Source of the DNA: a virus
Taxonomy: Duplodnaviria > Caudoviricetes
Virus record (IMG/VR): IMGVR_UViG_3300046804_003398
Strand: one strand, 5' to 3'
Length of the DNA: 64,000 nt
Position 1 is the stretch's first letter; the number at the start of each line of letters is the position of its first letter. This document shows positions 28 to 29,240 of the stretch, piece by piece. Position numbers and translations under genes: made by a program. Below the pieces are notes generated by a model, which saw only the letters and a program-made list of their open reading frames with translations, was not told the DNA's origin and searched no databases.

Positions 28-702
28 TTAGGACAGTGAAAAGTTGTTTTGATGAACAATCTTTGGTTTTACATCAGGTCTACTGTGCCATTTTTCTGGA
101 TCTGGATACGCATAACCAGATGACAACAATTTAACGGGTTTGTTCAAGAGAAATTTGTTCATATAAGATTCATCAAACCACTTAGCAATGTATCGAATCT
201 TAAGATCTTGTTTTATCATCTCGTTAATCTCAGTCGCCATCTCCAACACACTGTTTGTATATCCACCAAAGAAACAAGCTTGTAGATAATGGTTATTGCC
301 ACTGTCCAACACATACGCCGTCGATGATGGGTTGGTATCATACTGTTCACTATTGTATGATTGCCATGGATGTTTTGTTACAACGATTGGAGTATCTGTG
401 GTTGGAAATACTTCCTCGTCTATATCATCAACAACAATACAATCGCCATCGATAAAGTATAACAAATCAAAATTTCTAAGTATGTGTTGTTTTTGAACCA
501 GTAGATTAAACTTCATTAATGTTATCAATGGAGATGGTAAATGTGATGTATGAAACACCTCACTGTGTGACGATAAAGCATCAGTGTATACAAAATTGTG
601 AACAGAGTATTTTGTTAAAAAATGTGTATCTATTGATTTACGTAATGCCGGGTATTTGTCCCAATAAGCATCTGTGGAAATTGTGCATATAGCAATTTTC
701 AT
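28..702 (-). CDS. GT6-family (ABO/alpha-1,3-Gal/GalNAc-transferase-like) glycosyltransferase
   Basis: IDGDC DxD motif, KHPW, NPSSTAYV, FFGG and AKWFDESYMNK (compare WHDESHLNK in GT6). Confidence 0.8.
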   Translation of the reverse strand: MKIAICTISTDAYWDKYPALRKSIDTHFLTKYSVHNFVYTDALSSHSEVFHTSHLPSPLITLMKFNLLVQKQHILRNFDLLYFIDGDCIVVDDIDEEVFPTTDTPIVVTKHPWQSYNSEQYDTNPSSTAYVLDSGNNHYLQACFFGGYTNSVLEMATEINEMIKQDLKIRYIAKWFDESYMNKFLLNKPVKLLSSGYAYPDPEKWHSRPDVKPKIVHQNNFSLS

Positions 703-772
703 ATTATAATTTTGATTATCAATTTTTGATTGCCGACTTATTGATACATATATACTGGTATTTCACAATAAC

Positions 773-1711
773 ATGAAAGTCAAACTTCTTACATATAATA
801 ATAGAGCAGGCATCGTGATTGATGCGATGTTGTTACAAAACTTGATTCAAAAAAACGTAGCAGAAAATACCGACATTTTGTTCATAGAACATTTGGGTAA
901 AAATTGGGCGGTTCCAAATTATGTTGCTGATGAAACAGGTGATGTTGGTATTTGGATTCAGAACCCAAGATATGATTATCTTCATAATTTCAAGAAAAAC
1001 ATTTGGTTTGTGAATGAAGAGTGGGCTGGCGCTGATGACTTGAAGAAGATTGATCAATTTGACTATATCGTTGTAAAGACTGAATACGCAAGGAAGTTGT
1101 TGGAACCCATAAGACCAGACGTTGTGTGTTTGCCATTAATATCTTATGATTTTTACGACCCATCTATTGTAAAGGAACAAAAGTTTCTTCACTTCAACGG
1201 TAGAGCAATTCAAAAGAACACTGAAGCTATAATGCGTCAAAAGATTCCCATGACTGTTGTGGACACTACAAAACGATTTGTTGCGCCTGGGAACGTAGAC
1301 TACATCACACAATACATGATTAAACGTGATATTAAGAAGATGTTGAACCGTCACTCTGTTCACATATGTCCAAGTTTATACGAAAGTTGGGGACACTATT
1401 TGTATGAAGGATTGTCAACTGGCGCCGAAATCATCTGTAGTGACATACCATCGTTTTCAGAACATTTGGACCCATCACTTGTAAGAATAATCCCTACCGT
1501 CGAAAAGATAGATTTGGACTATCATTATTGTAAAGACAACCTTGAGGGAACATTTCCTCTACGTAAAGCATTCTTTCTTGATGAAGAGAAACTTACAAAC
1601 GCTCTTGAAAACTTTGAACCAATTGGTAGAGAACAAGAACGTCGAGATATGTTCCATGATATTATGTTGAAGAATTCCAATCGACTGATAGACTTTTTTA
1701 AGAACATATGA
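773..1711 (+). CDS. GT4-like (GT-B) glycosyltransferase
   Basis: HICPSLYESWGHYLYEGLSTGAEIICSD carries the E-x7-E motif. Confidence 0.75.
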   Translation: MKVKLLTYNNRAGIVIDAMLLQNLIQKNVAENTDILFIEHLGKNWAVPNYVADETGDVGIWIQNPRYDYLHNFKKNIWFVNEEWAGADDLKKIDQFDYIVVKTEYARKLLEPIRPDVVCLPLISYDFYDPSIVKEQKFLHFNGRAIQKNTEAIMRQKIPMTVVDTTKRFVAPGNVDYITQYMIKRDIKKMLNRHSVHICPSLYESWGHYLYEGLSTGAEIICSDIPSFSEHLDPSLVRIIPTVEKIDLDYHYCKDNLEGTFPLRKAFFLDEEKLTNALENFEPIGREQERRDMFHDIMLKNSNRLIDFFKNI

Positions 1712-2415
1712 AGTTGTGTTACATGTATGATGATGGTTTTTTGCCATTGAGAACTCATTTTCTTGACAATCTAAAAGATACCTTTGAATTGATTGAAAAG
1801 AAGTTAGATACTCCAAAGTTTGAAACAGACTTTCATCAACATAGATTGTTTGGTGGTGGTATTCAAGTTTGGAAAGACAAAGTAAAGTTCTTGTTGGAAA
1901 CCATAGACATATGTGACCCAAACGAATACTTTGTATATTCCGATGTTGATGTGGTATTTTTCAAACCAATCATACCCATATTGAATGAAGTTCTTAACAA
2001 TAAAGATGTGGTGTTCATTAGAGAAATACCACATGGATCTTTGCCACAACAAGGTGGTGATGTAGCAGGTCATTGCAACTTTGGTTTTTGTGTGATCAAG
2101 GCTTGTGATAAATCCAAAAGGTTCTTTCAAGATGTGTTACACATGATTGAGAACACAAAGAACTTCGTAGACTCACATGATCATGCTTTGTGGCCTGATG
2201 GTCTTATGGATCAAACGTGCGTCAACAGAATATTGTTCTCAAATCCAGACTATGATCTTGATTGGGGAACTTTACCTCTTACATTTACAACAACAGCATA
2301 TGAGACATACAATATGATTAACAAAGATACTGTCGCATATCACGCAACATGTGTGATTGAGGTGAACAAAAAGATTGAACTGTTGAACTTGTTTAAACAA
2401 AAGGTGACGGAATGA
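1708..2415 (+). CDS. nucleotide-diphospho-sugar transferase (GT77-like, GT-A)
   Basis: YSDVDVVFF, CNFGF, DQTCVN, YHAT motifs; ATGA overlap with the previous gene. Confidence 0.7.
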   Translation: MKLCYMYDDGFLPLRTHFLDNLKDTFELIEKKLDTPKFETDFHQHRLFGGGIQVWKDKVKFLLETIDICDPNEYFVYSDVDVVFFKPIIPILNEVLNNKDVVFIREIPHGSLPQQGGDVAGHCNFGFCVIKACDKSKRFFQDVLHMIENTKNFVDSHDHALWPDGLMDQTCVNRILFSNPDYDLDWGTLPLTFTTTAYETYNMINKDTVAYHATCVIEVNKKIELLNLFKQKVTE

Positions 2416-3131
2416 ATTTATACTACATGTCAGATCCACTATTTGAGGATCTAAAACAAAACTTCATCAACAGTATAAAAGACAAAGAAAACTTCAATCT
2501 GATTGAAATACCAATTGATACTCCTCAATTTGATGAAGAATGTCCAGAACATTGTAAGTTTGGTGGCGGATTCAATACTTGGCAATCAAAGTTGTCTGGG
2601 ATGATTAATGGTATAAATCAAACCAAAGAAGGTGAATATTTTGTATTTTCAGATGTAGACGTAGTTGTGTATAGACCACTACTATCCGCAATCAATCAAG
2701 TGATCAAAGATCAAGATGTAGTATTTCTACGAGAGTTTTTTGACGATCAAGAAAAACAACGATTGAAAGAATATTACGACAAAACACTTGATGGAAATTA
2801 TGACATGCAGTTAGGAAACATCAATATTGGTTTTAACTTGATAAGATCGTGTGATAAAACACATCGATTCTTTTCAGACATATTAAAGATGATCGTGGAT
2901 ACAGGTTTGTTGGAACAAAGTTTGATCAACAAAACTTTATATTCTCCAAACGATTATGATTTGAAATGGGATTTGTTTCCACCTGAATTCTTTTCAACAT
3001 CAGTTGGATTACATCACATACACAATGAAATAAAAGATGTGGTGTTATATCACGCAAACTGTGCGGTCAAAAAACAAACAAAGCTAGAATACATGTATCA
3101 CATTGATAATGTAATCAACCGACGTTTGTAA
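2412..3131 (+). CDS. nucleotide-diphospho-sugar transferase (GT77-like), paralogue of 1708..2415
   Basis: FSDVDVVVY, NINIGF, EQSLIN, YHANC; shared FGGG..W..K and CDK..RFF segments. Confidence 0.7.
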   Translation: MNLYYMSDPLFEDLKQNFINSIKDKENFNLIEIPIDTPQFDEECPEHCKFGGGFNTWQSKLSGMINGINQTKEGEYFVFSDVDVVVYRPLLSAINQVIKDQDVVFLREFFDDQEKQRLKEYYDKTLDGNYDMQLGNINIGFNLIRSCDKTHRFFSDILKMIVDTGLLEQSLINKTLYSPNDYDLKWDLFPPEFFSTSVGLHHIHNEIKDVVLYHANCAVKKQTKLEYMYHIDNVINRRL

Positions 3132-4209
3132 ATCGGTGCATAGCTTGTCCGATTGCCTGGTGCATATCAAAATACTGATAACATGCCAATCGACCACCCA
3201 GTATCATATTTGGAAAATGTTCTGCACATTCATTCTTATAATGTGTGTATAGACTGTGGTTTTTTTCGTCATTGATTGGGTAATATTTTTCCAACGATCT
3301 ATTCCATGTCTGAGGATACTCACGGGTGATTATAGTGGTCTTCGATTGTGTTTGTTCAAAGTGTTTATGTTCTACTATACGAGTGTATGGAACACTTTGT
3401 TCAGTATAGTTCATTATGGCATTACCTTGATAATCAGAATCAAATACTTCTGATATGTCGAATCTAAGACTTCTGTATTCCAACTCACCCTTGTTATATC
3501 CAAACAGTTCATCCAACGCACCAGTGTATACCACTTTGTTTGCTTTACTAGACCAATACTCAAGGTCTTTTAGAAAGTCTACACCAGTTTCAATTGGTAT
3601 GTCTTTCATCATGTTTTTTATCATCTGAGTATATCCTCCAATCGGAATACCTTGATATGTGTCGTTGTAATAGTTATCGTCATACGTCAGTCTGATTGGC
3701 AAACGTTTGATGATAAACGATGGCAATTCTTTTGGATCTCTACCCCATTGTTTTGTGGTGTATCCTTTTATAAACGTATGATACAAGTCTTCACCCACTT
3801 GACTCAGAATCCACTCTTCCAAGTTCTGTGGGTTCTCAATTTTAACTCGCACAGATTCTAGTTTACTTTTTGCTTCACTTGGTGTTTGACATCCCCACAG
3901 TTGGTAAAGAGTAAACATATTAATTGGAAACGAATATATGTTATTCTTGTATTTCACCTTTGGTCTGTTGACAAAGTTGTTGAACGTTGCAAACTTGTTG
4001 ACGTAATCCCATATTTCTTTATTTGATGTATGAAATATGTGCGGACCATACACATGAACGTTGATGTTCTGTATTCTGTCGGTGTAACAATTACCAGCAA
4101 CGTGTGGTCTTTTTTCCAAGATCAAACACGATTTACCGGCTTCTTTTGCGAGATTGGCAAACGTGGCACCAAACAAACCACTGCCAACAATCAAATAATC
4201 ATACTTCAT
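3115..4209 (-). CDS. glf: UDP-galactopyranose mutase
   Basis: FAD motif IVGSGLFG, AGNCY, HVYGPHIFHT, YTTKQWG, YQGIP, RIVEHKHF, YYPIND, GRLACYQYFDMHQAI. Confidence 0.97.
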   Translation of the reverse strand: MKYDYLIVGSGLFGATFANLAKEAGKSCLILEKRPHVAGNCYTDRIQNINVHVYGPHIFHTSNKEIWDYVNKFATFNNFVNRPKVKYKNNIYSFPINMFTLYQLWGCQTPSEAKSKLESVRVKIENPQNLEEWILSQVGEDLYHTFIKGYTTKQWGRDPKELPSFIIKRLPIRLTYDDNYYNDTYQGIPIGGYTQMIKNMMKDIPIETGVDFLKDLEYWSSKANKVVYTGALDELFGYNKGELEYRSLRFDISEVFDSDYQGNAIMNYTEQSVPYTRIVEHKHFEQTQSKTTIITREYPQTWNRSLEKYYPINDEKNHSLYTHYKNECAEHFPNMILGGRLACYQYFDMHQAIGQAMHRFTNVG

Positions 4210-4951
4210 GGAATTTATATTCTAGTCTATCTGAGAAAGTGGGAGGCATGTAGTTTGTAAATTCATGACTCTTGTAAATTTCTTCGTTGTATGATGCTCC
4301 CAACACACCAATATGATTTAACCTAGAAAGTCTTGGAGTCACCGTTTTAATTTTATCCAAATAATGAGGAAGTAGATGTTCAGAAAAACACCATACATGT
4401 GGCCATTTCTTCATACAATCAAACCACATTTTTCTGGTGCAAAGATACCCCCATGTAGCAAAGTAAACCATGCCTGTTCTAACCGGATGAAAGTTGTTTT
4501 TGATTTCCAACACATCTTTACCATCGTCACTTTGTGGAGGATCAACCAAGTTGTCTTTGTTCAAGTAAGTCAAAATCGTATTGTTATCATAATACTGTGA
4601 GTTGACATAGAACTTGGTAATGTCATACATGTCATTAGACATCACACAATCATCCTCGGTGTAAATCACATGTTCCAAGTTTAGTATCTCAAAACTGTAG
4701 TAGAGTGTCATGTATTGGTTCAACAACAGTCCATATTTGTATGGATTAACCATTATGCGTATGTTTGGATACAATCTCAACTTTGTGAGTAGATCAAAAT
4801 TCATTGCGTCTGGTTCAACCAAAAACACGAAATTCATTTTGTCAAAATCACGTTGTGCCAAACAAGAATTTATGTATGTTTGAAAATATTCAAGACGATG
4901 TGGCTTTCCTAAATAAACTGGGGCAACTATGGTAACATCATTCATACTCAT
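4199..4951 (-). CDS. GT-A fold glycosyltransferase (GT2/GT13-like)
   Basis: IYTEDDC, FATWGY, SRLNHIGVLG motifs. Confidence 0.6.
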   Translation of the reverse strand: MSMNDVTIVAPVYLGKPHRLEYFQTYINSCLAQRDFDKMNFVFLVEPDAMNFDLLTKLRLYPNIRIMVNPYKYGLLLNQYMTLYYSFEILNLEHVIYTEDDCVMSNDMYDITKFYVNSQYYDNNTILTYLNKDNLVDPPQSDDGKDVLEIKNNFHPVRTGMVYFATWGYLCTRKMWFDCMKKWPHVWCFSEHLLPHYLDKIKTVTPRLSRLNHIGVLGASYNEEIYKSHEFTNYMPPTFSDRLEYKFHEV

Positions 4952-5011: not shown

Positions 5012-5836
5012 ATGAAACTAATCACGTTCATCAACTTTGCTTATATAGATATTTGTTATAATTTGTATCTTCAACTCAAACGGTTTTCCCGTCATACCGA
5101 TCTGGTTGTGTTTTGCACCGATGAGAATACATATAACTCAATGACATCCAAAAATCTGGAATGTGACATACAACTATACAAACCAGTTTTGTTTGCAAAC
5201 ATATCGGATAAACTAAAACGTCATTTGGATAACACCGATCTCGCCGCAACATATAAACGAAGCGAATCATACTCAGTATATCAGTTTTTAAAGCATGATG
5301 TAGTTTACCAAACACTGTTGAACAATGATCGGGTGTGTCTGATTGATTCAGATTTGATAATCTTCGAAGATTTTGTTGATGAATTGATATACTGGATGGA
5401 TAACGACAACAAGTTTTATCATACAGAACCAGCTACATTTGGATTCAAGTATTATTTGCAAATAAGAACCGGCGTCGATCCACTCAAAAAAGAACATTTA
5501 TATCAATGGATTGGACGAGAGAAAACCATAAATACTGGGTTCATGTATGTTAGACGATCTGATGCTTCGTTTCATCACATCCAAAACTACAGTAATCTAT
5601 TTCTGCCACATTTTGACCACTTGAATAATTTGGATGAACATATAATGACCGAGTATTTCAGAAACATCATTGAGAATACGGTTGATATAAAAGATCAAAT
5701 TAACCTACTAAGTGATGTAGGGGTAAATTATACCTACGAACAAGTGTTGAGAATCAAACCAAAAACATATCACCCAACATTCACTGGTGACAAAATTGAG
5801 TTCATGAAAAACTGCAATCAGTGGTTTGTCGAATAA
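5012..5836 (+). CDS. nucleotide-diphospho-sugar transferase (GT77-like)
   Basis: LKHDVV, LIDSDL, INTGFMYVR, C-terminal HPTF..DKIEFMK..QWF. Confidence 0.7.
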   Translation: MKLITFINFAYIDICYNLYLQLKRFSRHTDLVVFCTDENTYNSMTSKNLECDIQLYKPVLFANISDKLKRHLDNTDLAATYKRSESYSVYQFLKHDVVYQTLLNNDRVCLIDSDLIIFEDFVDELIYWMDNDNKFYHTEPATFGFKYYLQIRTGVDPLKKEHLYQWIGREKTINTGFMYVRRSDASFHHIQNYSNLFLPHFDHLNNLDEHIMTEYFRNIIENTVDIKDQINLLSDVGVNYTYEQVLRIKPKTYHPTFTGDKIEFMKNCNQWFVE

Positions 5837-6438
5837 TTCCAAATCAACGGCCAAAGTCTTTCATATACCCAAGGAGTTGTTGGCAGATTGTTTGTAAACA
5901 CATCATACGAATGTTTCCACCAATCCAAACTCTTTGAAAGGATTTTGTGTTTTGGAACGATGTATTGTGCTCCGGCGGAAAACGTGAATGTAGTGGTTTT
6001 ATCAAATGTGCAGTTCTCAAACAAAAGCTTTGAGATTTTGATCATAGGTAGAAAACATCCATGGCCTGGTCCACCGTCATAATTTTTTGTTACTGGACCC
6101 CAATTGCTGCCCAACCAAACAACGTCATCGACATCACGTTTTTCATCAATCAATTTCAATACATCCCAACAATGATCAAATGGATCGCCTTGAAGAAACA
6201 CAAGTTCGTCGCTCAAGTTGTGATAATTGTTGACGATGTGATACAACATACTGTCTGCTTCTCGACCGACGTTTGGCAATGTTTTAAACTCATACGGCAA
6301 CAACGGAAACCCTTTGTTGTAAATAACCACATCATCCTTGACTTTTTCAACCCAACTCAAGTTTTCGTCAAATCTGGTTATTACCAAAGTCCGCATTTTA
6401 GTGGATGATGAACGGTTGATTCTTAATTCTTTCAACAA
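5818..6438 (-). CDS. DUF3431-family protein
   Basis: ENLSWV, LPNVGREADSMLYHIVNNY, FLQGDPFDH, GAQYIV, YERLW. Confidence 0.8.
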   Translation of the reverse strand: MLKELRINRSSSTKMRTLVITRFDENLSWVEKVKDDVVIYNKGFPLLPYEFKTLPNVGREADSMLYHIVNNYHNLSDELVFLQGDPFDHCWDVLKLIDEKRDVDDVVWLGSNWGPVTKNYDGGPGHGCFLPMIKISKLLFENCTFDKTTTFTFSAGAQYIVPKHKILSKSLDWWKHSYDVFTNNLPTTPWVYERLWPLIWNYSTNH

Positions 6439-7291: not shown

Positions 7292-7292
7292 A

Positions 7293-8447: not shown

Positions 8448-8941
8448 AACACCGTTGCCTCATTCTCCTTTGACTCGGCAATAACAGTTTGGTCTGGTTT
8501 CTTGATCTTATACGGAAACAGTCCCATGTCAGCTCTAATGCTGAATTGACGGGTGTCTTGTTCACCACCCCACTTTTTTGATTTATCACATATACCTTCA
8601 GGACGAATTCCATCCACTGGTTCTGGCAAATAATATGGCCAAAATTCAGCCTTGTTGGCAATTACAATTTCATGATGACCTCTTGGTCTAGGACTGTAAT
8701 TAAGACTGGAAAGTATTTGTTCTGCCTTTGACCAATCGGTAACGTTCAGAAAACATATATCAAACTCATATGTTCCTACCTTGGATAAGTCATTTTCTAC
8801 ATACACATTGGTGAAAAGTTGTTTCCACATTTGTGACGACAATTTTCCAGTGTCATTTATTTCCAAAACTACGAGGTTTGCTACATCTTTGTAGTTTGCG
8901 TATACCTTGTAGATATCAAAGAATAATCTTGGGCTGTTCAT
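8435..8941 (-). CDS. hypothetical protein, possibly a degenerate methyltransferase-like fold
   Basis: Overlaps both neighbours in the operon; LVVLEINDTG and FDICFL weakly recall SAM motifs I and IV. Confidence 0.4.
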   Translation of the reverse strand: MNSPRLFFDIYKVYANYKDVANLVVLEINDTGKLSSQMWKQLFTNVYVENDLSKVGTYEFDICFLNVTDWSKAEQILSSLNYSPRPRGHHEIVIANKAEFWPYYLPEPVDGIRPEGICDKSKKWGGEQDTRQFSIRADMGLFPYKIKKPDQTVIAESKENEATVLWYS

Positions 8942-18845: not shown

Positions 18846-18846
18846 C

Positions 18847-23208: not shown

Positions 23209-23983
23209 CAAACTGTAGAACATCATCATTGTTCATCTTGAGGTTGCTCTGTATAATCCAGAACGCATCTGTTTTTCTTAATTGAGATTCGTGTTCGTCT
23301 GGATTCCAAAGACCACTACAAAAAGTCTTTGTAACATCATCGGCATACAAATACTTGCCATTGACATGTAAGTAATAGTGCATGTATTCTGTTCCAATAT
23401 TACCCAATACAAAGTCTTTGACAAACGTTGGGTGATTTGTTTCCAGATTGTCTAACAGCTGTTTTACTTCATCAGTAATCATCAACGCCGGAGTTACACC
23501 ATAATGGAACTTCCACAAGACAGTCTTTGGATCTCTGTTGATATATCCAAGCGTATCATACAACCATTTTACATGACAACAAGTATCATATTGTGATCTA
23601 TCTAAATGTTGTGATGCATCATAGATGAACAAAATAATCTCACCGTCTTCATTGAAGAACTCGTTGAAATCAAACTTTCGATTCACATATAAATCACTAT
23701 CCAACAACAAATAATGTGTGGTCTGTATTTGTCGTGCTATATACAGCTTCAATAAGCATTGTTTGAAGTAACCAGAACAACGTGTTGGCGTTACAACCAC
23801 ATCATGGTCCAATACTACAGTGTATGTATCATCCAATTGTAATGAGTCACACATCTTAGGTATGATAACAATCTTGGGACAGTTGGTAAATTTCAACGAT
23901 GGCGCCAAGACTTTATTGAACCGTTCAACATCATAATCCGACTTGGTGTTGATTGGTATTACTATAGAAAATGTGTGATTCAT
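23180..23983 (-). CDS. DUF6492-like GT-A fold protein
   Basis: GYFKQCLLKL, YLLLDSD, GVTPALM, TEY. Confidence 0.65.
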   Translation of the reverse strand: MNHTFSIVIPINTKSDYDVERFNKVLAPSLKFTNCPKIVIIPKMCDSLQLDDTYTVVLDHDVVVTPTRCSGYFKQCLLKLYIARQIQTTHYLLLDSDLYVNRKFDFNEFFNEDGEIILFIYDASQHLDRSQYDTCCHVKWLYDTLGYINRDPKTVLWKFHYGVTPALMITDEVKQLLDNLETNHPTFVKDFVLGNIGTEYMHYYLHVNGKYLYADDVTKTFCSGLWNPDEHESQLRKTDAFWIIQSNLKMNNDDVLQFVRDNGSNPI

Positions 23984-25122
23984 AATAAATTGAGTCTAAT
24001 CGAAATAGTATCATATACCACTCTACGTATGTTTTCAATTGTAAAATGTGACTCAGACAATTTATACATTTCATCTCTAACCGATTCAAACTTATCTAAA
24101 TTGTTATTTACATCGTTTATCTTCTCAACCAAATCACTTAGATCTTTTTTAATTTTGATATAGTGTTTGTCTGGAACCAGTTGATGTTCAGCATATGACC
24201 ACACTGGATGATCTGTAGAGAATATGATTCTGTTTGTTTGAATCAAATGTGGCACTCGACCACTAAATCCACCAGCACCAACCTCAATCAGATAGTCAAA
24301 GTCTTTTACTTGATCTTCAAATGTGACATATTCAGAGTATGTGAACTCTGGTGAAATGTCTTTTTCTGGCGATTGATGTTTTATCCAATGTTTGGCATCA
24401 ATCAAATCTGGATATTTCTGTGACAATTTTACCAACGATTTTCTTTGAGCACAGTTAAGAGATCCTCGCCAACCAACCTTTTGTTGCAATCCCTTGTTAT
24501 GTTTAGCATACTCACGTTTGTATTTGGTGAGATTATTAAAATTGACTCCAAGAAAATCACTATAAGCACATGTTGGTAATATGGATAATGTGTTATTGAC
24601 CAACAGACCACGTTTGTAATATTGTGGATCGGTCAACTGTTTGACATCTGGTAGAAACTCTCGTTGGTTATAAGCGCCTAGATCAACTTCGTGTTGTTCA
24701 AATTCATAATTGTAATATGCGGTTGAAAACACAGGAATTTTGATATTATCCAACATGTGTTTGGTAGGACCAGAATCATGTAGAACTATCTGAATCCAGT
24801 CAAAATTCTTGAAGTTATACTCCGCGTCAACATCGTTTAATAACTTGATGGTTGCGAATGGTCTGTCATCATTGTAATGACCATAATCCATTTTACCATT
24901 GTGTTTTCTTACAAATAACGTTGACGCTTGATAATATTGTGGGTATGGTGTCCCCCAATAATAAGGGTAATCACTTTCTTTCATTCCCCATCCAATATCA
25001 TCAAGAGTATTATATGATTTATTGATGCTATAGTCTTTGCACAGATCGGCGTTACCGTGCCATCGTGATGGGTGTGAATTGATATAAATTACCTCAGACA
25101 TACTATCAACCTCGGAACTCAC
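23980..25122 (-). CDS. GT90/CAP10-domain glycosyltransferase
   Basis: VGWRGS, R..LV, DYLIEVGAGGFSGR, LVPDKHYI.IK.DLSDL.EKI. Confidence 0.75.
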   Translation of the reverse strand: MSSEVDSMSEVIYINSHPSRWHGNADLCKDYSINKSYNTLDDIGWGMKESDYPYYWGTPYPQYYQASTLFVRKHNGKMDYGHYNDDRPFATIKLLNDVDAEYNFKNFDWIQIVLHDSGPTKHMLDNIKIPVFSTAYYNYEFEQHEVDLGAYNQREFLPDVKQLTDPQYYKRGLLVNNTLSILPTCAYSDFLGVNFNNLTKYKREYAKHNKGLQQKVGWRGSLNCAQRKSLVKLSQKYPDLIDAKHWIKHQSPEKDISPEFTYSEYVTFEDQVKDFDYLIEVGAGGFSGRVPHLIQTNRIIFSTDHPVWSYAEHQLVPDKHYIKIKKDLSDLVEKINDVNNNLDKFESVRDEMYKLSESHFTIENIRRVVYDTISIRLNLL

Positions 25123-26167
25123 TTAAATTACCAAAGTCTATAAGATCATAATTCAGATCTTGTCTAATAACATTCAAGAATTCGCCATGTTCTGGATGAC
25201 TTGGATCAAATATGTTGTGTTTGTTAAACTCATCTGGAGAATATGTTCCCCAATTTACAATCCTTGATAGATAACAATAGAAACTATGTGATCTTGCTAT
25301 GTCCACAAACAGTGGTATTTCTTTGTAATTCTTCTGTTGACATACAAAGTCCAATCTAACCCAATGCAACTTACCTTTGTCAAATAGTGTTTCAACAAAG
25401 TCCAAGTTACGCATCAACTTCTTCCAATCACCACCTTTTCTAGTGTAATTGTAAGTTTCTTCGGTTCCAGCATCCAAACTGATTATTGTGCTGATTCGAT
25501 TGTTGTGAATCTTGTTCATCTTATCCCAGTTTTCTTCTGTGAATAGAACACCGTTTGTTTGAAGTTGGAACTCTACCAATGGATTCTTTACACCTTCAAA
25601 TGAAGTCAAAAACTCCCAAAACAACCTACTAGCAAATGGATCTCCAGACCCAGTAACATTGATTGTGGTTCTTACCTTACATGTATAAAGATACTCAATC
25701 AACTTTTCTTGAAATTGAACCTTGGTGTAATACTCGTTGCCCACACTCTTTTCATTCAAGAAAACAAAATTCTCACGACAACTTGGACATCTCAAATTGC
25801 AACTTCTATCATAACATAGATTGATGAAGTTTGGATTGGATGAAATCAGTTGTTTTTCTTCATAGATTTTCTTTTTGTCCGCACCATGTTTTCCAGCCAA
25901 AACATCTTCTACGTTTGGCAATGAATCATTTTGAATCATCGGACATTGAGTTCTATTGCAATACTTATAACTTCCGTCCAGAATTGATTCTCTAAACCTT
26001 TGAGCTTTTTCTCCATTCCATCTATTCTCAAATCCTTCTGAAATTCTTACTTTGCCAAAGTTATACTGATTGACCCAGTTTGGACAACACGGATACATGT
26101 TGGTATCATCTTGGATCTCCATGAAGTCCCAAGGTCTAAAACACATCTTTTTGGTCAAGTCTTTCAT
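25106..26167 (-). CDS. radical SAM protein with N-terminal SPASM/twitch domain
   Basis: CFRPW, YPCC, C..C of the SPASM domain; CNLRCPSC (CxxxCxxC); GSGDPF; QTNG; SLDA. Confidence 0.9.
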   Translation of the reverse strand: MKDLTKKMCFRPWDFMEIQDDTNMYPCCPNWVNQYNFGKVRISEGFENRWNGEKAQRFRESILDGSYKYCNRTQCPMIQNDSLPNVEDVLAGKHGADKKKIYEEKQLISSNPNFINLCYDRSCNLRCPSCRENFVFLNEKSVGNEYYTKVQFQEKLIEYLYTCKVRTTINVTGSGDPFASRLFWEFLTSFEGVKNPLVEFQLQTNGVLFTEENWDKMNKIHNNRISTIISLDAGTEETYNYTRKGGDWKKLMRNLDFVETLFDKGKLHWVRLDFVCQQKNYKEIPLFVDIARSHSFYCYLSRIVNWGTYSPDEFNKHNIFDPSHPEHGEFLNVIRQDLNYDLIDFGNLSEFRG

Positions 26168-26595
26168 TATTGTCCTCCGTTAATAACTTTATCTTCAGCA
26201 CTCATACGATGTTTGTTTTGTTCAAATAACTTGTATAACTTATGAAGGTCTGAGTCTGGTGATAAAACCGTCCAGATATTATTTTCTGCATTTTCACACA
26301 CAATAATACTTTCAATTTTTACTTTGGCAACTTTTTTATCCAGAATGTCAAATACGTCATTTGCGTTGGACTTTAACTTAAGAACTTCTGGTCCATTTTT
26401 TACATTCACTGTAACCGTATTGGTGTAGAGTGTATGTAGATCCAATGGTGCTTCTTTCCAACATTTATCTTGATCGGAATAAAACACGATCAAGTCATCT
26501 GTCAATTGAACAACGTCAAGTTTGTTTATGTGTTTGATTGTTGATACGGGAACGGTATAAACAATATTGTTATAGTAGACTTCTTTAATATTCAT
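26167..26595 (-). CDS. hypothetical protein
   Basis: 142-aa ORF coupled to both neighbours by overlapping stop/start codons. Confidence 0.6.
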   Translation of the reverse strand: MNIKEVYYNNIVYTVPVSTIKHINKLDVVQLTDDLIVFYSDQDKCWKEAPLDLHTLYTNTVTVNVKNGPEVLKLKSNANDVFDILDKKVAKVKIESIIVCENAENNIWTVLSPDSDLHKLYKLFEQNKHRMSAEDKVINGGQ

Positions 26596-29240
26596 AGACT
26601 TTTATAAATCTTAGAATTGACCATACTTTCTAAGAAATGACCAATTTCAACTTTGTATCTCATAGTTTTCAGATAAAGATGTGCTCTCCTAATGAGGTCC
26701 AAATCTTTAAGCTTTTCTTCCAGATCAAACTGACTATCAATATATAGTGGATATCCTTCACCCAAGTATTCGACAACAGCGGGCAAACGATTTATAAATA
26801 TTGGAGTCGCTCTGGCCATACATTCAATGATACCATTGTTTGCACTACTATCGTATAGATCCAAATAAACGACATTCTCTGTCAAAATCTTATCATATTC
26901 ATCGTTTGGCAAAAAGTCAAGGATTTTAACAGAGTTACGTTGTTCATCAGTGATGTATTGATTACTGACAAGAGACTCTATTTTTTCTAATCTGAAAATG
27001 GTGTCTTTACACTTATTGTTTGGAAGCAATCTGACCTTTTGATAACCGTGCGCTCTAACAGTATATAACGCATTCAATTTACGTAACCACCAGCCAATCG
27101 TAATAAGCTTTTTCTCTTGATTCTTTGCAAACCTTTCAAAATCAAATTGTAACTCTGGAATTTCAGTTGGATGATATAGTGACTCAACTGGAATAAAAGG
27201 TATGTATTGACGTATCACCTTGGCATGATATTCGGATAAAGTATAGATACCCTTACATCTTCTAAGACTGTCTAGGAAGTATGGATCTTGCAATATGATG
27301 TTACTGAATGCATTGTTGTCACTAAACCACGGTGGCATGTTTGGAGGATTGTGAATAAACCCAATCCAACTCTTGTTGTAAGGAATAGTCTTTTGAAGAA
27401 TACATTCTGTCTTTCTCCAACTAAAATTGTTCTCTATAAACCCATCACAATAAACGCCACTGTTGCTATTGAGAGCGGCCATGTTGTGCAACACATAATT
27501 CCATCCAGATCTATGTGAATAGAAAGACAATTGTCTACCAAGATTGATCTTCTTTGGATACTTGTTATTATCAGTCAACTCTTTGAACTTGATGATGATG
27601 TCACCATACTCACCCTTGTTCAAGACATTTGACTTCTCTATAACAAATCCAGTTTCTACCAATACACGTTCGTTGAAATTGGTATCTTTGAATAACAACC
27701 TGCTGGTATTGTTCTTGATACCATTGACATAAACGTCTACAATCTTGATGCCATACCGATTGTTGCCAGATCGGTTTATAAATGACCCGTCGAATGTAAC
27801 ATCACAGTTGATCTTGACATTCTTTTCTTCTTTGGAAATTATCTTCAATGAGTGTTGACCACGTTTCATCGAATATACATGATCAACTTCATTTATAGTA
27901 AACGTCACATTGACATCGGTAATTGATTCCAATACAACTTCAAATTTGTATACATCGGGCCCAATTACAATTTCAGCTTCTTTGTCTGACCAAATACCAT
28001 TGACCAACGATTCATTGTGCCATCCATTTTTAAAGTAAATTGGAAACAATGAAGACTCTTCCGTTTGTGACGTATTTGGTTGATACAATTCTACTGGGTC
28101 CAAATATACGCATTTTCTAATATTTGTGTAGTATGCGTTCTTGAGACTGTTGCACAAATCTTCGTATGACGGATCAACACTCTTGGTGTTCATATTGATC
28201 CACATCAACATTGATGTATCTATGTTTTTGTCATAACTACTGATATATGTTGTGTTGTAATTAACCTCAAACAATCTAGGATAGTTTGTAAGGTAATCTG
28301 TCATACCGCCGTGTAAAGGACTTACAATATCTTTATTCTTAGTCTTTGCGGTGTAACATGGTATATTGAATCCTTCACCTCTTGATACGTTAACATAAAT
28401 GTCAGTGTCATCATGTAGACTCTGAATTTTGTCAAAGCTCAACCTTTCGCTTATTACTACAATAGGAGCATAAGCAAAGTCTTTGTCCCGATTCTTGATC
28501 TTTTTGAGTATGATCTCTTGTATATGTTTCTCAATGGTCTTAACATTATTAAGGTTATCAGTGAACTTACATATCAATAATGTTTCGTCATCAAAAGCAA
28601 ATGAATCCAAATATGCTTCGATCAAAAATCCCGTGTTCTTTCTGGATACCAATGACGATACATTCAGAAACTTGACTCTCTTGGCAAACCGTTGATAGTT
28701 TATTGGAACCGGACTGAATATTCTGGCATTTTCAAATAAGTCAACTATATTGTGACGTTTATAGTGAACGGGTGGTATGGTGTGTGGTTCCACTATAATA
28801 TCCTTCTTGATGCCTGAATTTACAAACACCTCTTTACACCATTGTGAAGGCACGCTTACTACATTTACGATACTGTCATTTATCGATTTTACCCACTTGT
28901 CTGGAAGCGGATCAAAGTCCCATACAGTTCTGCCAGTAATTTTTTTGTTACCAATCCAATCTTTGTGTGACTCAATAACTTGATTCCAGATGTCGGGTGT
29001 AAAATGAATCACCACTTCCGAATCACTCAACTTTTCTTTCTTTGAAAATACTGGAAGCTTCTTTAAGTTGTTGTGAAAATACTTATAAAACTCAGTGTCG
29101 TCTTTTACTGGTTCTCCAGACAATGTAGCAAAATAAACTTCATGACCGTTTTGTAATAGGTCATAAATGTATCCCTTGGCCGCATTAGCATACCCACTCG
29201 CACCATCCGCACCGAAATAAACAACTTTCTTGTTACTCAT
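26592..29240 (-). CDS. three-module glycosyltransferase (GT4 + beta-sandwich + second GT-B-like domain)
   Basis: SGYANAA...GEGFNIP GT4 module; GWH..GIWS middle module; HRSGW...SANNGIIEC..RATP..EYLG C-terminal module. Confidence 0.75.
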   Translation of the reverse strand: MSNKKVVYFGADGASGYANAAKGYIYDLLQNGHEVYFATLSGEPVKDDTEFYKYFHNNLKKLPVFSKKEKLSDSEVVIHFTPDIWNQVIESHKDWIGNKKITGRTVWDFDPLPDKWVKSINDSIVNVVSVPSQWCKEVFVNSGIKKDIIVEPHTIPPVHYKRHNIVDLFENARIFSPVPINYQRFAKRVKFLNVSSLVSRKNTGFLIEAYLDSFAFDDETLLICKFTDNLNNVKTIEKHIQEIILKKIKNRDKDFAYAPIVVISERLSFDKIQSLHDDTDIYVNVSRGEGFNIPCYTAKTKNKDIVSPLHGGMTDYLTNYPRLFEVNYNTTYISSYDKNIDTSMLMWINMNTKSVDPSYEDLCNSLKNAYYTNIRKCVYLDPVELYQPNTSQTEESSLFPIYFKNGWHNESLVNGIWSDKEAEIVIGPDVYKFEVVLESITDVNVTFTINEVDHVYSMKRGQHSLKIISKEEKNVKINCDVTFDGSFINRSGNNRYGIKIVDVYVNGIKNNTSRLLFKDTNFNERVLVETGFVIEKSNVLNKGEYGDIIIKFKELTDNNKYPKKINLGRQLSFYSHRSGWNYVLHNMAALNSNSGVYCDGFIENNFSWRKTECILQKTIPYNKSWIGFIHNPPNMPPWFSDNNAFSNIILQDPYFLDSLRRCKGIYTLSEYHAKVIRQYIPFIPVESLYHPTEIPELQFDFERFAKNQEKKLITIGWWLRKLNALYTVRAHGYQKVRLLPNNKCKDTIFRLEKIESLVSNQYITDEQRNSVKILDFLPNDEYDKILTENVVYLDLYDSSANNGIIECMARATPIFINRLPAVVEYLGEGYPLYIDSQFDLEEKLKDLDLIRRAHLYLKTMRYKVEIGHFLESMVNSKIYKSL

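What the first reader, a model, noticed from the sequence alone, without database searches (positions are those of the whole stretch)
28..29240. 29-kb phage-encoded glycan factory: about 19 glycosyltransferases plus sugar-supply and tailoring enzymes
Seen: nearly every ORF from 28 to 29240 is a GT-A or GT-B glycosyltransferase, a nucleotide-sugar enzyme (Glf, NTP transferase), a methyltransferase, a radical SAM enzyme or a glycosidase-like protein. The block runs directly into T4-type replication genes, and a second operon adds about 6 more GT-like genes (36.3-43.4 kb). Known: T4-like phages usually carry only a few DNA glucosyltransferases, whereas large glycogene clusters are typical of giant viruses that glycosylate their own capsids or fibrils. 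Inference: this phage builds a complex, methylated, Galf-containing glycan, most plausibly on virion proteins or on the host surface. No flippase, polymerase or base-hydroxymethylase gene is visible in the window.
Basis: partly seen in the sequence, partly recalled or inferred. Interest (0 to 1): 0.85.

Follow-up and report, generated by a model that had tools for sequence, protein, structure and literature searches.

The report
Hypervariable glycan-building island in jumbo phage
An uncultured freshwater T4-like giant phage devotes 29 kb next to its DNA-replication genes to 14-21 soluble sugar-transferring enzymes plus sugar-supply and tailoring enzymes, with no export machinery. It probably builds a complex strain-specific glycan inside the infected cell, but what that glycan is attached to is unknown.

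Summary
Window 28-29240 carries 32 tightly packed genes. None has a transmembrane helix, and all 31 that have an orthologue are under purifying selection.

Glycosyltransferase (GT) count:
- 11 firm GTs (12 catalytic modules)
- 3 probable
- 7 leads

Other enzymes are a bona fide UDP-galactopyranose mutase, a sugar-1-phosphate nucleotidyltransferase, a methyltransferase and a twitch-type radical SAM enzyme.

The junction with the T4-type clamp-loader gene is not a misassembly. It recurs in independent contigs, including a 303.6-kb relative that has a gp23 capsid gene.

The island sits at a fixed place, downstream of gp44, in a clade of aquatic T4-like phages with GC 25-41%. Its gene content and alleles differ in every relative.

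The near-complete relative has no priming phosphoglycosyltransferase, flippase or polymerase, and no base hydroxymethylase. Its only ThyA-family gene is a canonical thymidylate synthase.

My best reading is cytoplasmic assembly of a complex glycan on a non-lipid acceptor, most likely virion proteins. This target is inferred, not shown. Host-envelope remodelling remains a serious rival.

Large sugar-gene clusters in T4-like aquatic phages are published (P-SSM2, pelagimyophages). This scan has also noted similar islands in at least 47 other genomes. I class this as a very large new variant of a known kind.

The parts
28..702 (-). o01: GT6-family glycosyltransferase (GT-A)
   Evidence: Pfam PF03414, 67.7 bits against a cutoff of 25. 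Variable: replaced by two GT25 genes in L010.
773..1711 (+). o02: probable GT-B (GT4-like) glycosyltransferase
   Evidence: Pfam Glycos_transf_1, 25.2 bits (cutoff 26.4). The top PDB hits of its profile are all GT4 (GlgM, E 1.5e-3). Widely conserved in the clade.
1708..3131 (+). o03 and o04: tandem paralogous Nucleotid_trans (GT77-like, GT-A) transferases
   Evidence: PF03407, 35.7 and 44.9 bits against a cutoff of 22. 36% identical to each other.
3115..4209 (-). o05: UDP-galactopyranose mutase (Glf)
   Evidence: PF03275, 250 bits. TIGR00031 equivalog, 381 bits against a cutoff of 304. Absent from G002.
4199..4951 (-). o06: GT-A-like candidate (lead only)
   Evidence: No HMM or PDB hit. N-terminal VTIVAPVY...CLAQ and a TEDDC motif typical of GT2. 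dN/dS 0.06.
5012..5836 (+). o07: Nucleotid_trans-family transferase
   Evidence: The 76%-identical homologue P0147 scores 26 bits against a cutoff of 22 on PF03407. DSD motif.
5818..6438 (-). o08: DUF3431 protein, function unknown (GT candidate)
   Evidence: PF11913, 39.8 bits against a cutoff of 25.
6398..7291 (-). o09: rare family, GH130-like (glycoside phosphorylase / GT108-like beta-propeller) on weak evidence
   Evidence: Only 40 representatives among 1.84e9 proteins. Fused to GT4 in P0164, which also gives a weak PF04041 hit. Top PDB hit of its profile is the GH130 protein Lin0857, E 0.064. Invariant E-D-P-R motif.
7293..8447 (-). o10: GT-A-fold glycosyltransferase of a Pfam-less, lineage-restricted family, with a C-terminal helical domain
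   Evidence: AlphaFold pLDDT 82, pTM 0.85. Foldseek hits to XXYLT1, LgtC, glycogenin and GT2, all at probability 1.0. Invariant E118-E119-D120. Only 75% nucleotide identity to G001, against 96-99% for its neighbours.
8435..8941 (-). o11: unknown conserved protein
   Evidence: No hit in Pfam, PHROGs or NCBIfam. dN/dS 0.09.
8916..9608 (-). o12: class I SAM methyltransferase (Methyltransf_24; weak O-methyltransferase/CmcI hits)
   Evidence: PF13578, 50.8 bits against a cutoff of 26.3.
9625..10755 (-). o13: paralogue of o10 (GT-A fold)
   Evidence: 39% identical to o10, E 3e-99. Member of alignment A1.
10752..13812 (-). o14, o15, o16: GT2-like GT-A candidates (leads)
   Evidence: ESM-Atlas feature hits at 0.96-0.97 to clusters with Glycos_transf_2 or 7C. 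Paralogues of o15 and o16 elsewhere in G002 give weak PF00535 hits. No direct HMM hit.
13809..15958 (-). o17 and o18: paralogous probable GT-B transferases
   Evidence: 29% identical, E 3e-44. Weak Glycos_transf_1 hit on o17 (E 0.0036) and on its G002 orthologue. Their profile finds nothing in the PDB.
15955..16992 (-). o19: GT4 / TarM-like GT-B glycosyltransferase
   Evidence: Profile hits TarM(Se) at E 4e-7 over residues 53-341. Pfam GT1, 22.4 bits.
16997..17422 (-). o20: small beta-rich module (W..E...RWS...R.LG), paralogue of o22
   Evidence: 28% identical to o22. hhalign 46%, E 2e-4 to the middle domain of o32.
17427..18845 (-). o21: GT4 glycosyltransferase, the most conserved gene of the island and its anchor
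   Evidence: PF00534, 37.2 bits against a cutoff of 26.4. 47-95% identical in 14 IMG/VR loci. No orthologue in 50,697 GenBank phage records.
18847..19281 (-). o22: small beta-rich module, first gene of the 15-gene operon o22 to o08
   Evidence: Junctions within 5818-19281 are overlaps or gaps of at most 16 nt.
19297..19324 (-). sigma-70-like promoter TTGACA-16-TATGAT with an upstream TG, in the gap ahead of o22
   Evidence: 11 of 12 matches, joint best score in 1-20000, lying in one of only four intergenic gaps. Consensus match only. The total number of sites is no higher than in shuffled sequence.
19391..20645 (+). o23 (GDPD-like by motif only) and o24 (sugar-1-phosphate nucleotidyltransferase)
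   Evidence: o24: PF12804, 36.8 bits against a cutoff of 27, and weak hits to the GlmU N-terminal domain. o23: phrog_34507 of unknown function and an HRG...ENS...E.D...HD motif.
20638..21420 (-). o25: unknown accessory gene, present or absent within the population
   Evidence: Absent from G001. Run X4 holds both the full form and a joint that skips 20645-21447.
21425..22543 (+). o26: GT61-family glycosyltransferase
   Evidence: PF04577, 47.3 bits against a cutoff of 27.
22540..23208 (+). o27: unknown (phrog_24975; methyltransferase-like by eye)
   Evidence: PHROG E 3.5e-30, function unknown.
23180..23983 (-). o28: DUF6492 protein (GT-A-like candidate)
   Evidence: PF20102, 57.1 bits against a cutoff of 22.9. 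N-terminal FSIVIP and a DSD motif.
23980..25122 (-). o29: GT90-family glycosyltransferase
   Evidence: PF05686, 42.2 bits against a cutoff of 24.
25106..26167 (-). o30: radical SAM enzyme with an N-terminal twitch/SPASM domain
   Evidence: PF13186 and PF04055 above threshold. NF033640 N_Twi_rSAM, 75.9 bits, below its cutoff. CX3CX2C at residue 123.
26167..26595 (-). o31: unknown small protein
   Evidence: No hits. Conserved in G002 at 47%.
26592..29240 (-). o32: 882-aa bifunctional enzyme: N-terminal GT4, middle beta domain, C-terminal GT-B of a Pfam-less family
   Evidence: PHROG 2170 over residues 15-329. C-terminal residues 560-882 have pLDDT above 85 and hit SenB, GlgM, OtsA, SdgB and TarM. 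More than 200 homologues carry the C-domain fused to GT4, GT25, GT2, radical SAM or sulfotransferase domains.
29285..34146 (-). Flank: T4-type clamp loader gp44, probable sliding clamp, small subunit, family B DNA polymerase
   Evidence: Pfam AAA, Gp44_lid and DNA_pol_B. PolB is 43% identical to that of Microcystis phage Mel-JY01.
35169..44217 (+). Second, conserved glyco-operon: PD-(D/E)XK nuclease, RHH-like protein, split GT4, dUTPase, GT-B, GT2, two unknowns, GT2, truncated NDP-sugar dehydrogenase
   Evidence: o38-o43 are 66-82% identical across the GC-30% clade and 37-55% identical to Mel-JY01.

Best explanation
This is a genuine phage gene island. It lies at a fixed place (downstream of the clamp-loader gene gp44) in a clade of aquatic T4-like phages, and it has grown to 29 kb in this roughly 300-kb freshwater jumbo phage.

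It encodes an assembly line of soluble enzymes:
- 14-21 GT-A and GT-B glycosyltransferases. Many belong to families without a Pfam model, and one (o32) carries two GT modules.
- Sugar supply: Glf and a sugar-1-phosphate nucleotidyltransferase.
- Tailoring: methyltransferase(s), a twitch radical SAM enzyme and a GH130-like protein.

Shown: the genes are real, soluble, conserved as a locus and hypervariable in content and alleles. The locus and a near-complete relative lack a lipid-carrier priming enzyme, a flippase, a polymerase and a base hydroxymethylase.

Inferred: the enzymes add sugars one by one in the cytoplasm, directly onto a non-lipid acceptor, and so build a complex, branched, partly methylated heteroglycan (with Galf in this strain). 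The most likely acceptor is one or more phage virion proteins, giving the particle a strain-specific glycan coat. This is how chloroviruses and mimiviruses glycosylate their capsids or fibrils, and how some mycobacteriophages glycosylate capsid and tail proteins.

The stated confidence is for the whole statement including the virion target. The part without the target I hold at about 0.85.
For: **Phage origin and real genes**
- T4-type replication genes flank the island.
- The junction is reproduced in G001, G002, L011-L024, L043 and in contigs of runs X4 and X20.
- dN/dS is 0.01-0.32 for all 31 ORFs that have an orthologue.
- G002 carries a gp23 capsid gene and a tape measure gene.

**GT content:**

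**No membrane machinery**
- No hydrophobic segment in o01-o32, apart from one marginal segment in o18.
- G002 has no PF02397 match.
- G002 has no ORF with 8 or more hydrophobic segments.

**No route to a hydroxylated base in G002**
- The only ThyA-family gene matches true thymidylate synthases at E 4e-77.
- No C5 DNA methyltransferase.

**Hypervariability at a fixed locus**
- o10, o11 and o16 are 72-82% identical to G001, while neighbours and replication genes are 96-99% identical.
- dS ranges from 0.03 to above 1 within the island.
- o25 is present or absent within one population.
- Gene content differs in every relative.

**Virus-specific distribution:** the anchor GT o21 has no cellular homologue in 185,579 species genomes, except one mis-binned phage contig.

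**Precedent:** the eight PBCV-1 GTs are mostly soluble and expressed early, yet glycosylate the capsid protein (PMC9614988). An early-type promoter is therefore not evidence against a virion target.
Against: - There is no direct evidence for any acceptor.
- The island lies in the replication module, not next to structural genes. Documented and proposed phage virion-glycosylation genes usually lie next to structural genes.
- Its 15-gene core operon appears to start at a sigma-70-type promoter. The genes o32-o28 follow gp44 on the same strand after a 44-nt gap.
- Peripheral GTs that act on undecaprenyl-linked intermediates also lack transmembrane helices, and the host could supply priming and export.
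- The published interpretation of comparable clusters (P-SSM2, pelagimyophages) is host LPS modification.
- G002 is only 89% complete, and the hydropathy scan is crude.
Confidence: 0.45

Rival explanations
1. Host-envelope remodelling. The soluble GTs act at the inner face of the host membrane on host lipid-linked intermediates (O-antigen, capsule, EPS or S-layer glycan). They use the host's priming enzyme and exporter, and change the cell surface during infection, for example to block superinfection or retain progeny. This is what has been proposed for P-SSM2 and pelagimyophage 'LPS genes'.
For: - Published precedent and interpretation (PMC1079782; PMC7029224).
- GT4, GT2, GT25 and Glf are typical of O-antigen loci.
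- A sigma-70-type, presumably early, promoter precedes the core operon.
- Hypervariability is also typical of surface-polysaccharide loci.
Against: - No priming PGT, flippase, polymerase, ligase or ABC transporter in the window or in the 303.6-kb relative.
- The anchor GTs have no cellular homologues. Cellular homologues would be expected if the genes had been captured from host LPS loci.
- Building an entirely new polysaccharide with 14-21 linkages through a foreign host exporter within one lytic cycle is demanding (inference).
- GT61, GT90 and GT77-like families are better known from protein or glycan modification in eukaryotes and giant viruses (family knowledge).
Confidence: 0.25
2. DNA hypermodification. 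Some or all of these GTs glycosylate a modified base in the phage DNA to evade restriction and glycosylase defences, as in T4 (glucosyl-5hmC), RB69/DLP3 (arabinosyl-5hoC) and Rhizobium phage RL38J1 (Gal/Glc on 5hoC, with a phage Glf).
For: - The island and the second operon lie in the replication and nucleotide-metabolism module.
- dUTPase sits inside the second operon, and a T4 gp1-like dNMP kinase sits next to it.
- A phage Glf is part of a DNA-glycosylation pathway in RL38J1 (PMC13326640).
- The second operon is a core unit, as conserved as the replication genes, and is shared with Mel-JY01. DNA-modifying enzymes would be expected to be conserved in that way.
Against: - Known DNA glycans have 1-3 sugars and need 1-3 GTs. 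This island has 14-21, with methyltransferases, a radical SAM enzyme and a GH130-like protein.
- No hydroxymethylase or hydroxylase occurs in the window.
- In G002 the only ThyA-family gene is a canonical thymidylate synthase, and there is no C5 methyltransferase.
- Glf is missing from G002.
- The DNA assembles readily from many ordinary metagenomes, which is only a weak argument.
- I hold this at about 0.07 for the island and about 0.3 for the second operon.
Confidence: 0.07
3. Another soluble acceptor. The glycan is built on a host or phage non-virion protein, a small molecule or a free oligosaccharide, such as a storage or decoy glycan or a secondary-metabolite-like glycoside.
For: - All the enzymes are soluble and no acceptor is identified.
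- The radical SAM, methyltransferase and GDPD-like tailoring genes resemble natural-product glycoside pathways.
Against: - No aglycone-forming enzymes (PKS, NRPS, terpene) occur in the window.
- Strong diversifying turnover of GT alleles fits an exposed, recognised structure better. This is inference.
Confidence: 0.15
4. Artefact: a bacterial capsule or LPS locus joined to phage DNA by misassembly.
For: None found.
Against: - Uniform GC and skew across 29.2 kb.
- The junction is bridged in G001, G002, L013, L043, the DNA run X4 (record 30, 28780-30258) and the RNA-library run X20 (record 14, 29059-30520).
- No cellular homologue of the anchor GT exists.
Confidence: 0.01

Closest known systems
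'LPS gene' clusters of T4-like marine cyanomyophages and pelagimyophages (P-SSM2: 24 genes in two clusters, PMC1079782; pelagimyophage hypervariable host-recognition cluster with many GTs, PMC7029224)
   Same: A T4-like aquatic myovirus. Large clusters of sugar-nucleotide and glycosyltransferase genes. Hypervariable between relatives. No experimentally known product.
   Different: - This island lies downstream of gp44 in the replication module, not between VrlC and gp14.
- It is larger and denser in GTs: 14-21 in 29 kb, with more glyco-genes on both sides.
- Its anchor genes have no orthologue in any of 50,697 GenBank phage records.
- The published reading is host LPS modification. My evidence (no priming or export genes, no cellular homologues) leans away from that.
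Autonomous glycosylation machinery of giant viruses (chlorovirus PBCV-1: eight GTs, A064R with two GT domains plus a methyltransferase domain; PMC9614988)
   Same: - Virus-encoded, mostly soluble GTs without signal peptides.
- The virus makes its own nucleotide sugars.
- Multi-module GTs and O-methylation.
- GT families that escape sequence annotation.
- Variants differ in glycan genes.
   Different: - A different virus realm (Caudoviricetes) with a bacterial host.
- Two to three times more GTs than PBCV-1.
- No glycan structure or acceptor is known here.
- There is one possible direct link: the C-terminal GT-B family of o32 also occurs on an 859-kb contig with giant-virus- or eukaryote-like genes. 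I did not resolve this.
Virion glycosylation of mycobacteriophages (Freeman et al. 2023, Cell Host Microbe 31:1216; cited in PMC12619734; not read here)
   Same: Phage-encoded GTs that decorate the phage's own capsid and tail proteins. This is the mechanism I consider most likely.
   Different: Those systems have about 2-4 GT genes placed among the structural genes, and they are experimentally shown. This island has 14-21 GTs in the replication module and is not shown.
Phage DNA glycosylation pathways (T4 alpha/beta-GT; RB69/DLP3 arabinosylation; RL38J1 with Glf, three GTs, 5hodCMP synthase and dNMP kinase; PMC13326640)
   Same: Glf, GT-B enzymes, a dNMP kinase and dUTPase close to replication genes.
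   Different: No base hydroxymethylase or hydroxylase was found, and there are far too many GTs and tailoring enzymes. This pathway fits the conserved second operon better than the island.

Membership tests
Bacterial Wzx/Wzy- or ABC-transporter-dependent O-antigen/capsule locus | Initiating polyprenyl-phosphate phosphoglycosyltransferase (WbaP/Bac_transf or WecA type) | tested here: not met
   No transmembrane protein among o01-o32. No PF02397 match in the 303.6-kb relative G002, and no polytopic ORF that could be WecA.
Bacterial Wzx/Wzy- or ABC-transporter-dependent O-antigen/capsule locus | Flippase/polymerase or ABC exporter, and flanking cellular genes | tested here: not met
   G002 has no ORF with 8 or more hydrophobic segments. 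The only ORF with 7 is the tape measure protein. The flanks are phage genes.
T4-like cyanophage/pelagimyophage 'LPS' gene clusters | T4-like phage backbone carrying a large, variable cluster of sugar-nucleotide and GT genes | tested here: met
   PMC1079782; PMC7029224.
T4-like cyanophage/pelagimyophage 'LPS' gene clusters | Location in the host-recognition cluster between VrlC and gp14, together with tail-fibre genes | tested here: not met
   The island lies directly downstream of gp44/gp45/gp43 in the window, in G002 and in 14 related loci.
Giant-virus-type autonomous glycosylation | Virus-encoded soluble GTs plus the virus's own nucleotide-sugar enzymes | tested here: met
   In G002 there is in addition an NDP-sugar epimerase/dehydratase at 207 kb.
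Giant-virus-type autonomous glycosylation | The glycan is attached to capsid or fibril proteins | not testable with these tools
   Needs virions and glycoproteomics.
Mycobacteriophage-type virion glycosylation | GT genes embedded in or adjacent to the structural-gene operon | tested here: not met
   The island is in the replication module. The G002 capsid gene is about 200 kb away in that linear record.
Mycobacteriophage-type virion glycosylation | Glycan shown on capsid or tail subunits | not testable with these tools
   No experimental data.
Phage DNA glycosylation (5hmC / 5hoC / 5hmU based) | ThyA-family hydroxymethylase/hydroxylase, or a cytosine methyltransferase plus a TET-like dioxygenase | tested here: not met
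   None among the window ORFs scanned. G002 has only a canonical thymidylate synthase and no C5 methyltransferase. The Tet_JBP search was uninformative because its controls were silent.
Phage DNA glycosylation (5hmC / 5hoC / 5hmU based) | dNMP kinase able to handle modified dNMPs, and 1-3 DNA GTs | tested here: inconclusive
   A gp1-like dNMP kinase is present. The number of GTs far exceeds what this pathway needs. Only the conserved second operon has a comparable size.
UDP-galactopyranose mutase (Glf) | Full-length match to the equivalog model above its trusted cutoff, with an FAD-binding N-terminus | tested here: met
   TIGR00031, 381 bits against 303.75. PF03275 plus NAD_binding_8.

The most novel reading that the evidence does not exclude
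A bacteriophage carries the largest self-contained protein-glycosylation machinery known outside the giant viruses. More than 20 soluble glycosyltransferases, several from families unknown to Pfam and restricted to viruses, coat the virion of a T4-like jumbo phage. The resulting glycan is complex and methylated, and it varies between near-identical strains as an O-antigen does. Under this reading the particle surface, not only the tail fibres, is a target of diversifying selection in nature.
Probability: 0.35. Interest if true: 0.8.

Novelty: new variant of a known kind. Interest (0 to 1): 0.62.

Why it matters
If the product coats the virion, capsid glycosylation on the scale seen in giant viruses would also exist in phages of bacteria. 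Phage particles would then carry hypervariable glycan 'serotypes'. This would affect phage adsorption, aggregation, grazing and recognition by host defences, and it would change how the abundant 'LPS genes' of aquatic T4-like phages are read.

The island is also a compact source of new GT families: the o10/o13 GT-A family, the o32 C-terminal GT-B family and the o09 GH130-like family. They come with a natural experiment of allelic replacements between near-identical genomes.

Even on the host-surface reading, this would be the most elaborate case of a lytic phage rebuilding its host's envelope.

Tried and rejected
**Searches that found nothing**
- PHROGs on 20 Pfam-less ORFs gave only o32 and 38414-39736 as GTs, plus two families of unknown function.
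- NCBIfam on 20 ORFs added only Glf, N_Twi_rSAM, GlmU-like and NDP-sugar dehydrogenase.
- Profile searches of the PDB for o10, the o32 C-terminal region (54), o06 (72), o15 (73) and o17/o18 (120) found nothing significant.
- hhalign of shallow alignments, 442 pairs among island ORFs, gave no pair at 40% or above. An earlier all-pairs run timed out.
- o37 (34388-35125; weak Cupin_3 hit) was considered as a TET-like dioxygenase. I found no support in PHROGs or the PDB.
- The Tet_JBP search of G002 is uninformative because nothing rang in the controls.

**Host and lineage clues rejected**
- The only 'cellular' hit to the anchor GT is a 12.6-kb contig in an Actinomycetota MAG. It has GC 25% and carries gp44 plus island genes, so it is a mis-binned phage fragment.
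- 'Moraphages' (PMC12619734) were considered as the lineage. Their description (Bacteroidota hosts, lacking much replication machinery) does not fit, and I did not pursue this.

**Limits of the expression data**
- RNA-library contigs cover many island genes and bridge the o32/gp44 junction.
- They are Logan contigs from metatranscriptomic libraries. DNA carry-over cannot be excluded and no timing can be read, so I do not count them as proof of transcription. Parts without cover mean nothing.

**Promoters and RNA genes**
- No T4-type late-promoter motif (TATAAATA) lies in front of island genes. An ATATATA-like string precedes several starts, but I did not test it for significance.
- No tRNA gene and no Rfam family occurs in the window.

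Full report
**What is there.** The window is phage DNA throughout. From 29285 onward it carries T4-type replication and nucleotide genes:
- clamp loader gp44 (AAA plus Gp44_lid) and family B DNA polymerase
- ribonucleotide reductase, gp41-type helicase, RNase H-like 5'-3' exonuclease and UvsX/RecA

The nearest named phage is Microcystis phage Mel-JY01, with PolB 43% identical. GC is 0.34-0.41 with smooth skew and no break at 29.2 kb. The first 29.2 kb hold 32 tightly packed ORFs.

**Are the genes real, and is the junction real?**
- An independent IMG/VR contig (G001, 54.8 kb) is collinear with window 308-55189 at 91-97% identity.
- Codon-level comparison with G001 and a second contig (L009) gives dN/dS of 0.01-0.32 for all 31 island ORFs that have an orthologue. 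The many ORFs without any family hit are therefore still protein-coding genes under purifying selection.
- A 303.6-kb relative (G002, CheckV 89% complete, PolB 72% identical) has the same order: island, gp44, gp45, gp43, second glyco-operon. It also carries a gp23-type major capsid gene and a tape measure gene.
- The island/gp44 junction is also bridged by a contig of a DNA run from another study (X4, 28780-30258) and by a contig from a metatranscriptomic library (X20, 29059-30520).

**How many glycosyltransferases?**

*Firm (11 proteins, 12 catalytic modules)*
- GT6 (o01), two Nucleotid_trans paralogues (o03, o04), GT4 (o21), GT61 (o26) and GT90 (o29). All score above the Pfam gathering score.
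- o07. Its 76%-identical homologue passes the PF03407 threshold.
- o10 and its paralogue o13. No sequence library recognises them. With an 18-sequence alignment, o10 folds at pLDDT 82 into a GT-A domain plus a helical C-terminal domain. All top Foldseek hits in the PDB and AFDB are GT-A enzymes (XXYLT1, LgtC, glycogenin, GT2) at probability 1.0. An invariant E-E-D sits after a central strand.
- o19. Its family profile hits the GT4 enzyme TarM at E 4e-7.
- o32 (882 aa). It has an N-terminal GT4 (PHROG 2170). Its C-terminal 320 residues fold confidently into a GT-B domain resembling SenB, GlgM, OtsA, SdgB and TarM.

*Probable (3)*
- o02: Glycos_transf_1 one bit under threshold, and profile hits to GT4 structures only.
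- The paralogues o17 and o18: weak GT1 signal only.

*Leads (7)*
- o14, o15 and o16: language-model neighbours with GT2/7C, and weak PF00535 hits on paralogues in G002.
- o06 and o28 (DUF6492): GT-A-like N-termini and DxD-type motifs.
- o08: DUF3431.
- o09: a rare family with 40 representatives in 1.84 billion proteins. It is fused to GT4 in one homologue and has weak but consistent GH130 signals, including an invariant EDPR motif.

'About 19' is thus a reasonable estimate within a range of 14-21.

*Non-GT enzymes*
- A true UDP-galactopyranose mutase (TIGR00031, 381 bits against a cutoff of 304).
- A sugar-1-phosphate nucleotidyltransferase, and a Methyltransf_24 enzyme.
- A radical SAM enzyme with an N-terminal twitch/SPASM domain. 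This is a known architecture, NF033640.

Six ORFs remain unexplained: o11, o20, o22, o25, o27 and o31.

**Anatomy.**
- No island protein has a transmembrane helix.
- Genes o22 to o08 (19281 down to 5818) form a 15-gene minus-strand run, with overlaps or gaps of at most 16 nt. In the 109-nt gap ahead of o22 lies one of the two best sigma-70-type matches in the first 20 kb: TTGACA-16-TATGAT with an upstream TG. This is a consensus match only.
- Genes o32 to o28 follow gp44 on the same strand after a 44-nt gap.
- o20 and o22 are small paralogous beta-rich modules that flank the anchor GT o21. They may be free-standing copies of the middle domain of o32 (hhalign 46%, E 2e-4).

**Comparative picture.** This is the most informative result.
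- The island occupies a fixed place, downstream of gp44. This holds in 14 IMG/VR loci, in a 229-kb ENA scaffold, in the 303.6-kb G002, and in a 12.6-kb contig mis-binned into an Actinomycetota MAG. GC across these ranges from 25% to 41%.
- The content differs everywhere. o21 is always present, and o02 and o09 often are. o10-o16 occur only in the nearest relatives. o25-o30 (GT61, DUF6492, GT90, radical SAM) occur only in the window's immediate kin. Glf, o03/o04 and o07 are missing from G002. L010 carries a TylF-type methyltransferase and two GT25 genes instead.
- Even between the window and G001, o10, o11 and o16 are only 72-82% identical, while replication genes are 97-99% identical (dS 0.05-0.14). 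Within the island dS ranges from 0.03 to above 1.
- o25 is present or absent within one sample.
- This is the pattern of an O-antigen-like locus: conserved flanks with allelic and cassette replacement inside.
- The second operon (35169-44217) behaves differently. It comprises a nuclease, an RHH-like protein, a split GT4, dUTPase, a GT-B, a GT2, two unknowns, a GT2 and a truncated NDP-sugar dehydrogenase. Genes o38-o43 are 66-82% identical across the GC-30% clade, which is as conserved as the replication genes. They are shared with cultured Mel-JY01 at 37-55%.
- The anchor GT o21 has no orthologue in 50,697 GenBank phage records. It has none in 185,579 species genomes apart from the mis-binned phage contig.
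- The C-terminal GT-B family of o32 has more than 200 members. They are fused to GT4, GT25, GT2, radical SAM or sulfotransferase domains. Some sit on a 401-kb huge-phage-like contig with its own GT/methyltransferase cluster. Others sit on an 859-kb contig with HSP70, haem peroxidase and patatin genes, which is giant-virus- or eukaryote-like.

**What it does.**

*Shown*
- A phage-specific, soluble, multi-enzyme glycan-building locus under purifying selection gene by gene, and under rapid turnover as a locus.
- In the near-complete relative G002:
  - no priming phosphoglycosyltransferase
  - no ORF with 8 or more hydrophobic segments that could be a flippase, polymerase, ligase or WecA
  - only a canonical thymidylate synthase from the ThyA family
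  - no C5 DNA methyltransferase

*Inferred*
- Sugars are added stepwise in the cytoplasm to a non-lipid acceptor. The product is a branched heteroglycan that is methylated and, in this strain, contains galactofuranose.
- I consider virion proteins the most likely acceptor (about 0.45). The reasons are the lack of export machinery, the virus-restricted GT families, the diversifying pattern, and the precedents of giant viruses and mycobacteriophages.
- In PBCV-1 the capsid-glycosylating GTs are soluble and early-expressed (PMC9614988). An early-type promoter therefore does not argue against this reading.

*Rivals*
- Host-envelope remodelling (0.25) is the published reading of comparable clusters (PMC1079782, PMC7029224). 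It cannot be excluded, because peripheral GTs need no membrane helices and the host could prime and export.
- DNA hypermodification is unlikely for the island (0.07). It has too many enzymes, no hydroxylated-base pathway, and Glf is dispensable in G002.
- DNA hypermodification remains a fair candidate (about 0.3) for the conserved second operon. That operon has an embedded dUTPase and a neighbouring gp1-like dNMP kinase, and Rhizobium phage RL38J1 uses a phage Glf and three GTs for DNA glycosylation (PMC13326640).

**Context from the scan (unchecked notes).**
- Other windows of the same genome were reported to hold a further glycan-building stretch directly upstream (rhamnose and GDP-mannose pathways, three B12 radical SAM enzymes). 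They were also reported to hold a small GT cassette next to a Pro/Thr-repeat virion protein.
- I could not read those windows. In G002, however, glyco-genes do spread over about 185-266 kb: GT6 at 185.9 kb, GT4 at 191.6 kb, an NDP-sugar epimerase/dehydratase at 207.5 kb and GT2 at 214.8 kb. G002 also has a 1021-aa protein with a Pro/Thr-rich linker.
- The scan has noted export-less, hypervariable glycan islands in phages in at least 47 other genomes. The theme is recurrent, and this is one of the largest examples.

**Novelty and score.**
- Large sugar-gene clusters in T4-like aquatic phages have been known since 2005, and their hypervariability since 2020, so the kind is known.
- New here are:
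  - the scale: 14-21 GTs in one 29-kb block, and roughly a quarter of a 300-kb genome given to glyco-genes in the relative
  - the fixed position beside the clamp loader
  - the set of virus-restricted GT families without Pfam models
  - the clear split into a conserved core glyco-operon and a hypervariable island
  - evidence that leans away from the customary 'LPS' reading
- The acceptor, which decides how interesting this is, remains unknown.

Noticed in passing
window 35169-44217: The second glyco-operon is a core unit. o38-o43 are 66-82% identical across the GC-30% clade and 37-55% identical to cultured Microcystis phage Mel-JY01, so they are as conserved as the replication genes. dUTPase lies inside it and a gp1-like dNMP kinase (44866-45528) lies next to it. 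It is a better candidate for DNA glycosylation than the island. No hydroxymethylase was found.
   Followed up: partly
window 26592-29240 (residues 560-882); P0024-P0143: The C-terminal GT-B domain of o32 belongs to a large family without a Pfam model (more than 200 hits). It occurs alone or fused to GT4, GT25, GT2, radical SAM or sulfotransferase domains. Members occur on a 401-kb huge-phage-like contig (L045) and on an 859-kb contig with HSP70, haem peroxidase and patatin genes (L044, giant-virus- or eukaryote-like).
   Followed up: partly
window 16997-17422 and 18847-19281; o32 residues ~400-490: Two small paralogous beta-rich proteins (W..E...RWS...R.LG) flank the anchor GT4 o21. They may be free copies of the middle domain of o32 (hhalign 46%). 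Their function is unknown; a carbohydrate- or acceptor-binding module is possible.
   Followed up: partly
window 20638-21420: o25 is an 801-bp presence/absence cassette. It is absent from G001, and both forms occur in one metagenome run (X4).
   Followed up: yes
window 43399-44217: The NDP-sugar dehydrogenase is truncated. It has only part of the N-terminal domain and the central domain (profile positions 67-299 of 413). The next ORF (44214-44591) is hydrophobic rather than the missing C-terminal domain. The arrangement is conserved in G001 and G002, so it is probably not a sequencing error.
   Followed up: partly
window 47975-49156: A DruA-like gene (Druantia protein, PF14236, 72.8 bits) is carried by the phage without other Druantia genes. 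It has no counterpart in G002.
   Followed up: no
window 54570-57941: The class I ribonucleotide reductase genes (small and large subunit) have no tblastn hit in the otherwise syntenic 303.6-kb relative G002.
   Followed up: no
L043 (WLOB01000088.1): A 12.6-kb contig filed in an Actinomycetota MAG has GC 25% and carries the end of gp44 plus o32-, o21-, o02- and GT6-like genes. It is a phage fragment mis-binned into the MAG, not a host clue.
   Followed up: yes
window 4952-5011, 19282-19390, 21421-21424, 703-772: An ATATATA-like string lies 5-25 nt upstream of several island start codons (o02, o06, o07, o23, o25, o26). It could be a phage-specific promoter element or just AT-rich leader sequence. 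I did not test it statistically.
   Followed up: no
window 49871-53000: A 699-aa protein (weak PHROG 'cobalamin biosynthesis protein') lies next to a MoxR/AAA_5 ATPase. This resembles the CobT/CobS-like pair common in aquatic T4-like phages.
   Followed up: no
G002 135241-138630 and 98979-100148: The relative carries extra paralogues of island genes outside the island: o14-like, an o12-like methyltransferase, two o15-like, and an o16-like. These form small additional GT/methyltransferase cassettes.
   Followed up: partly
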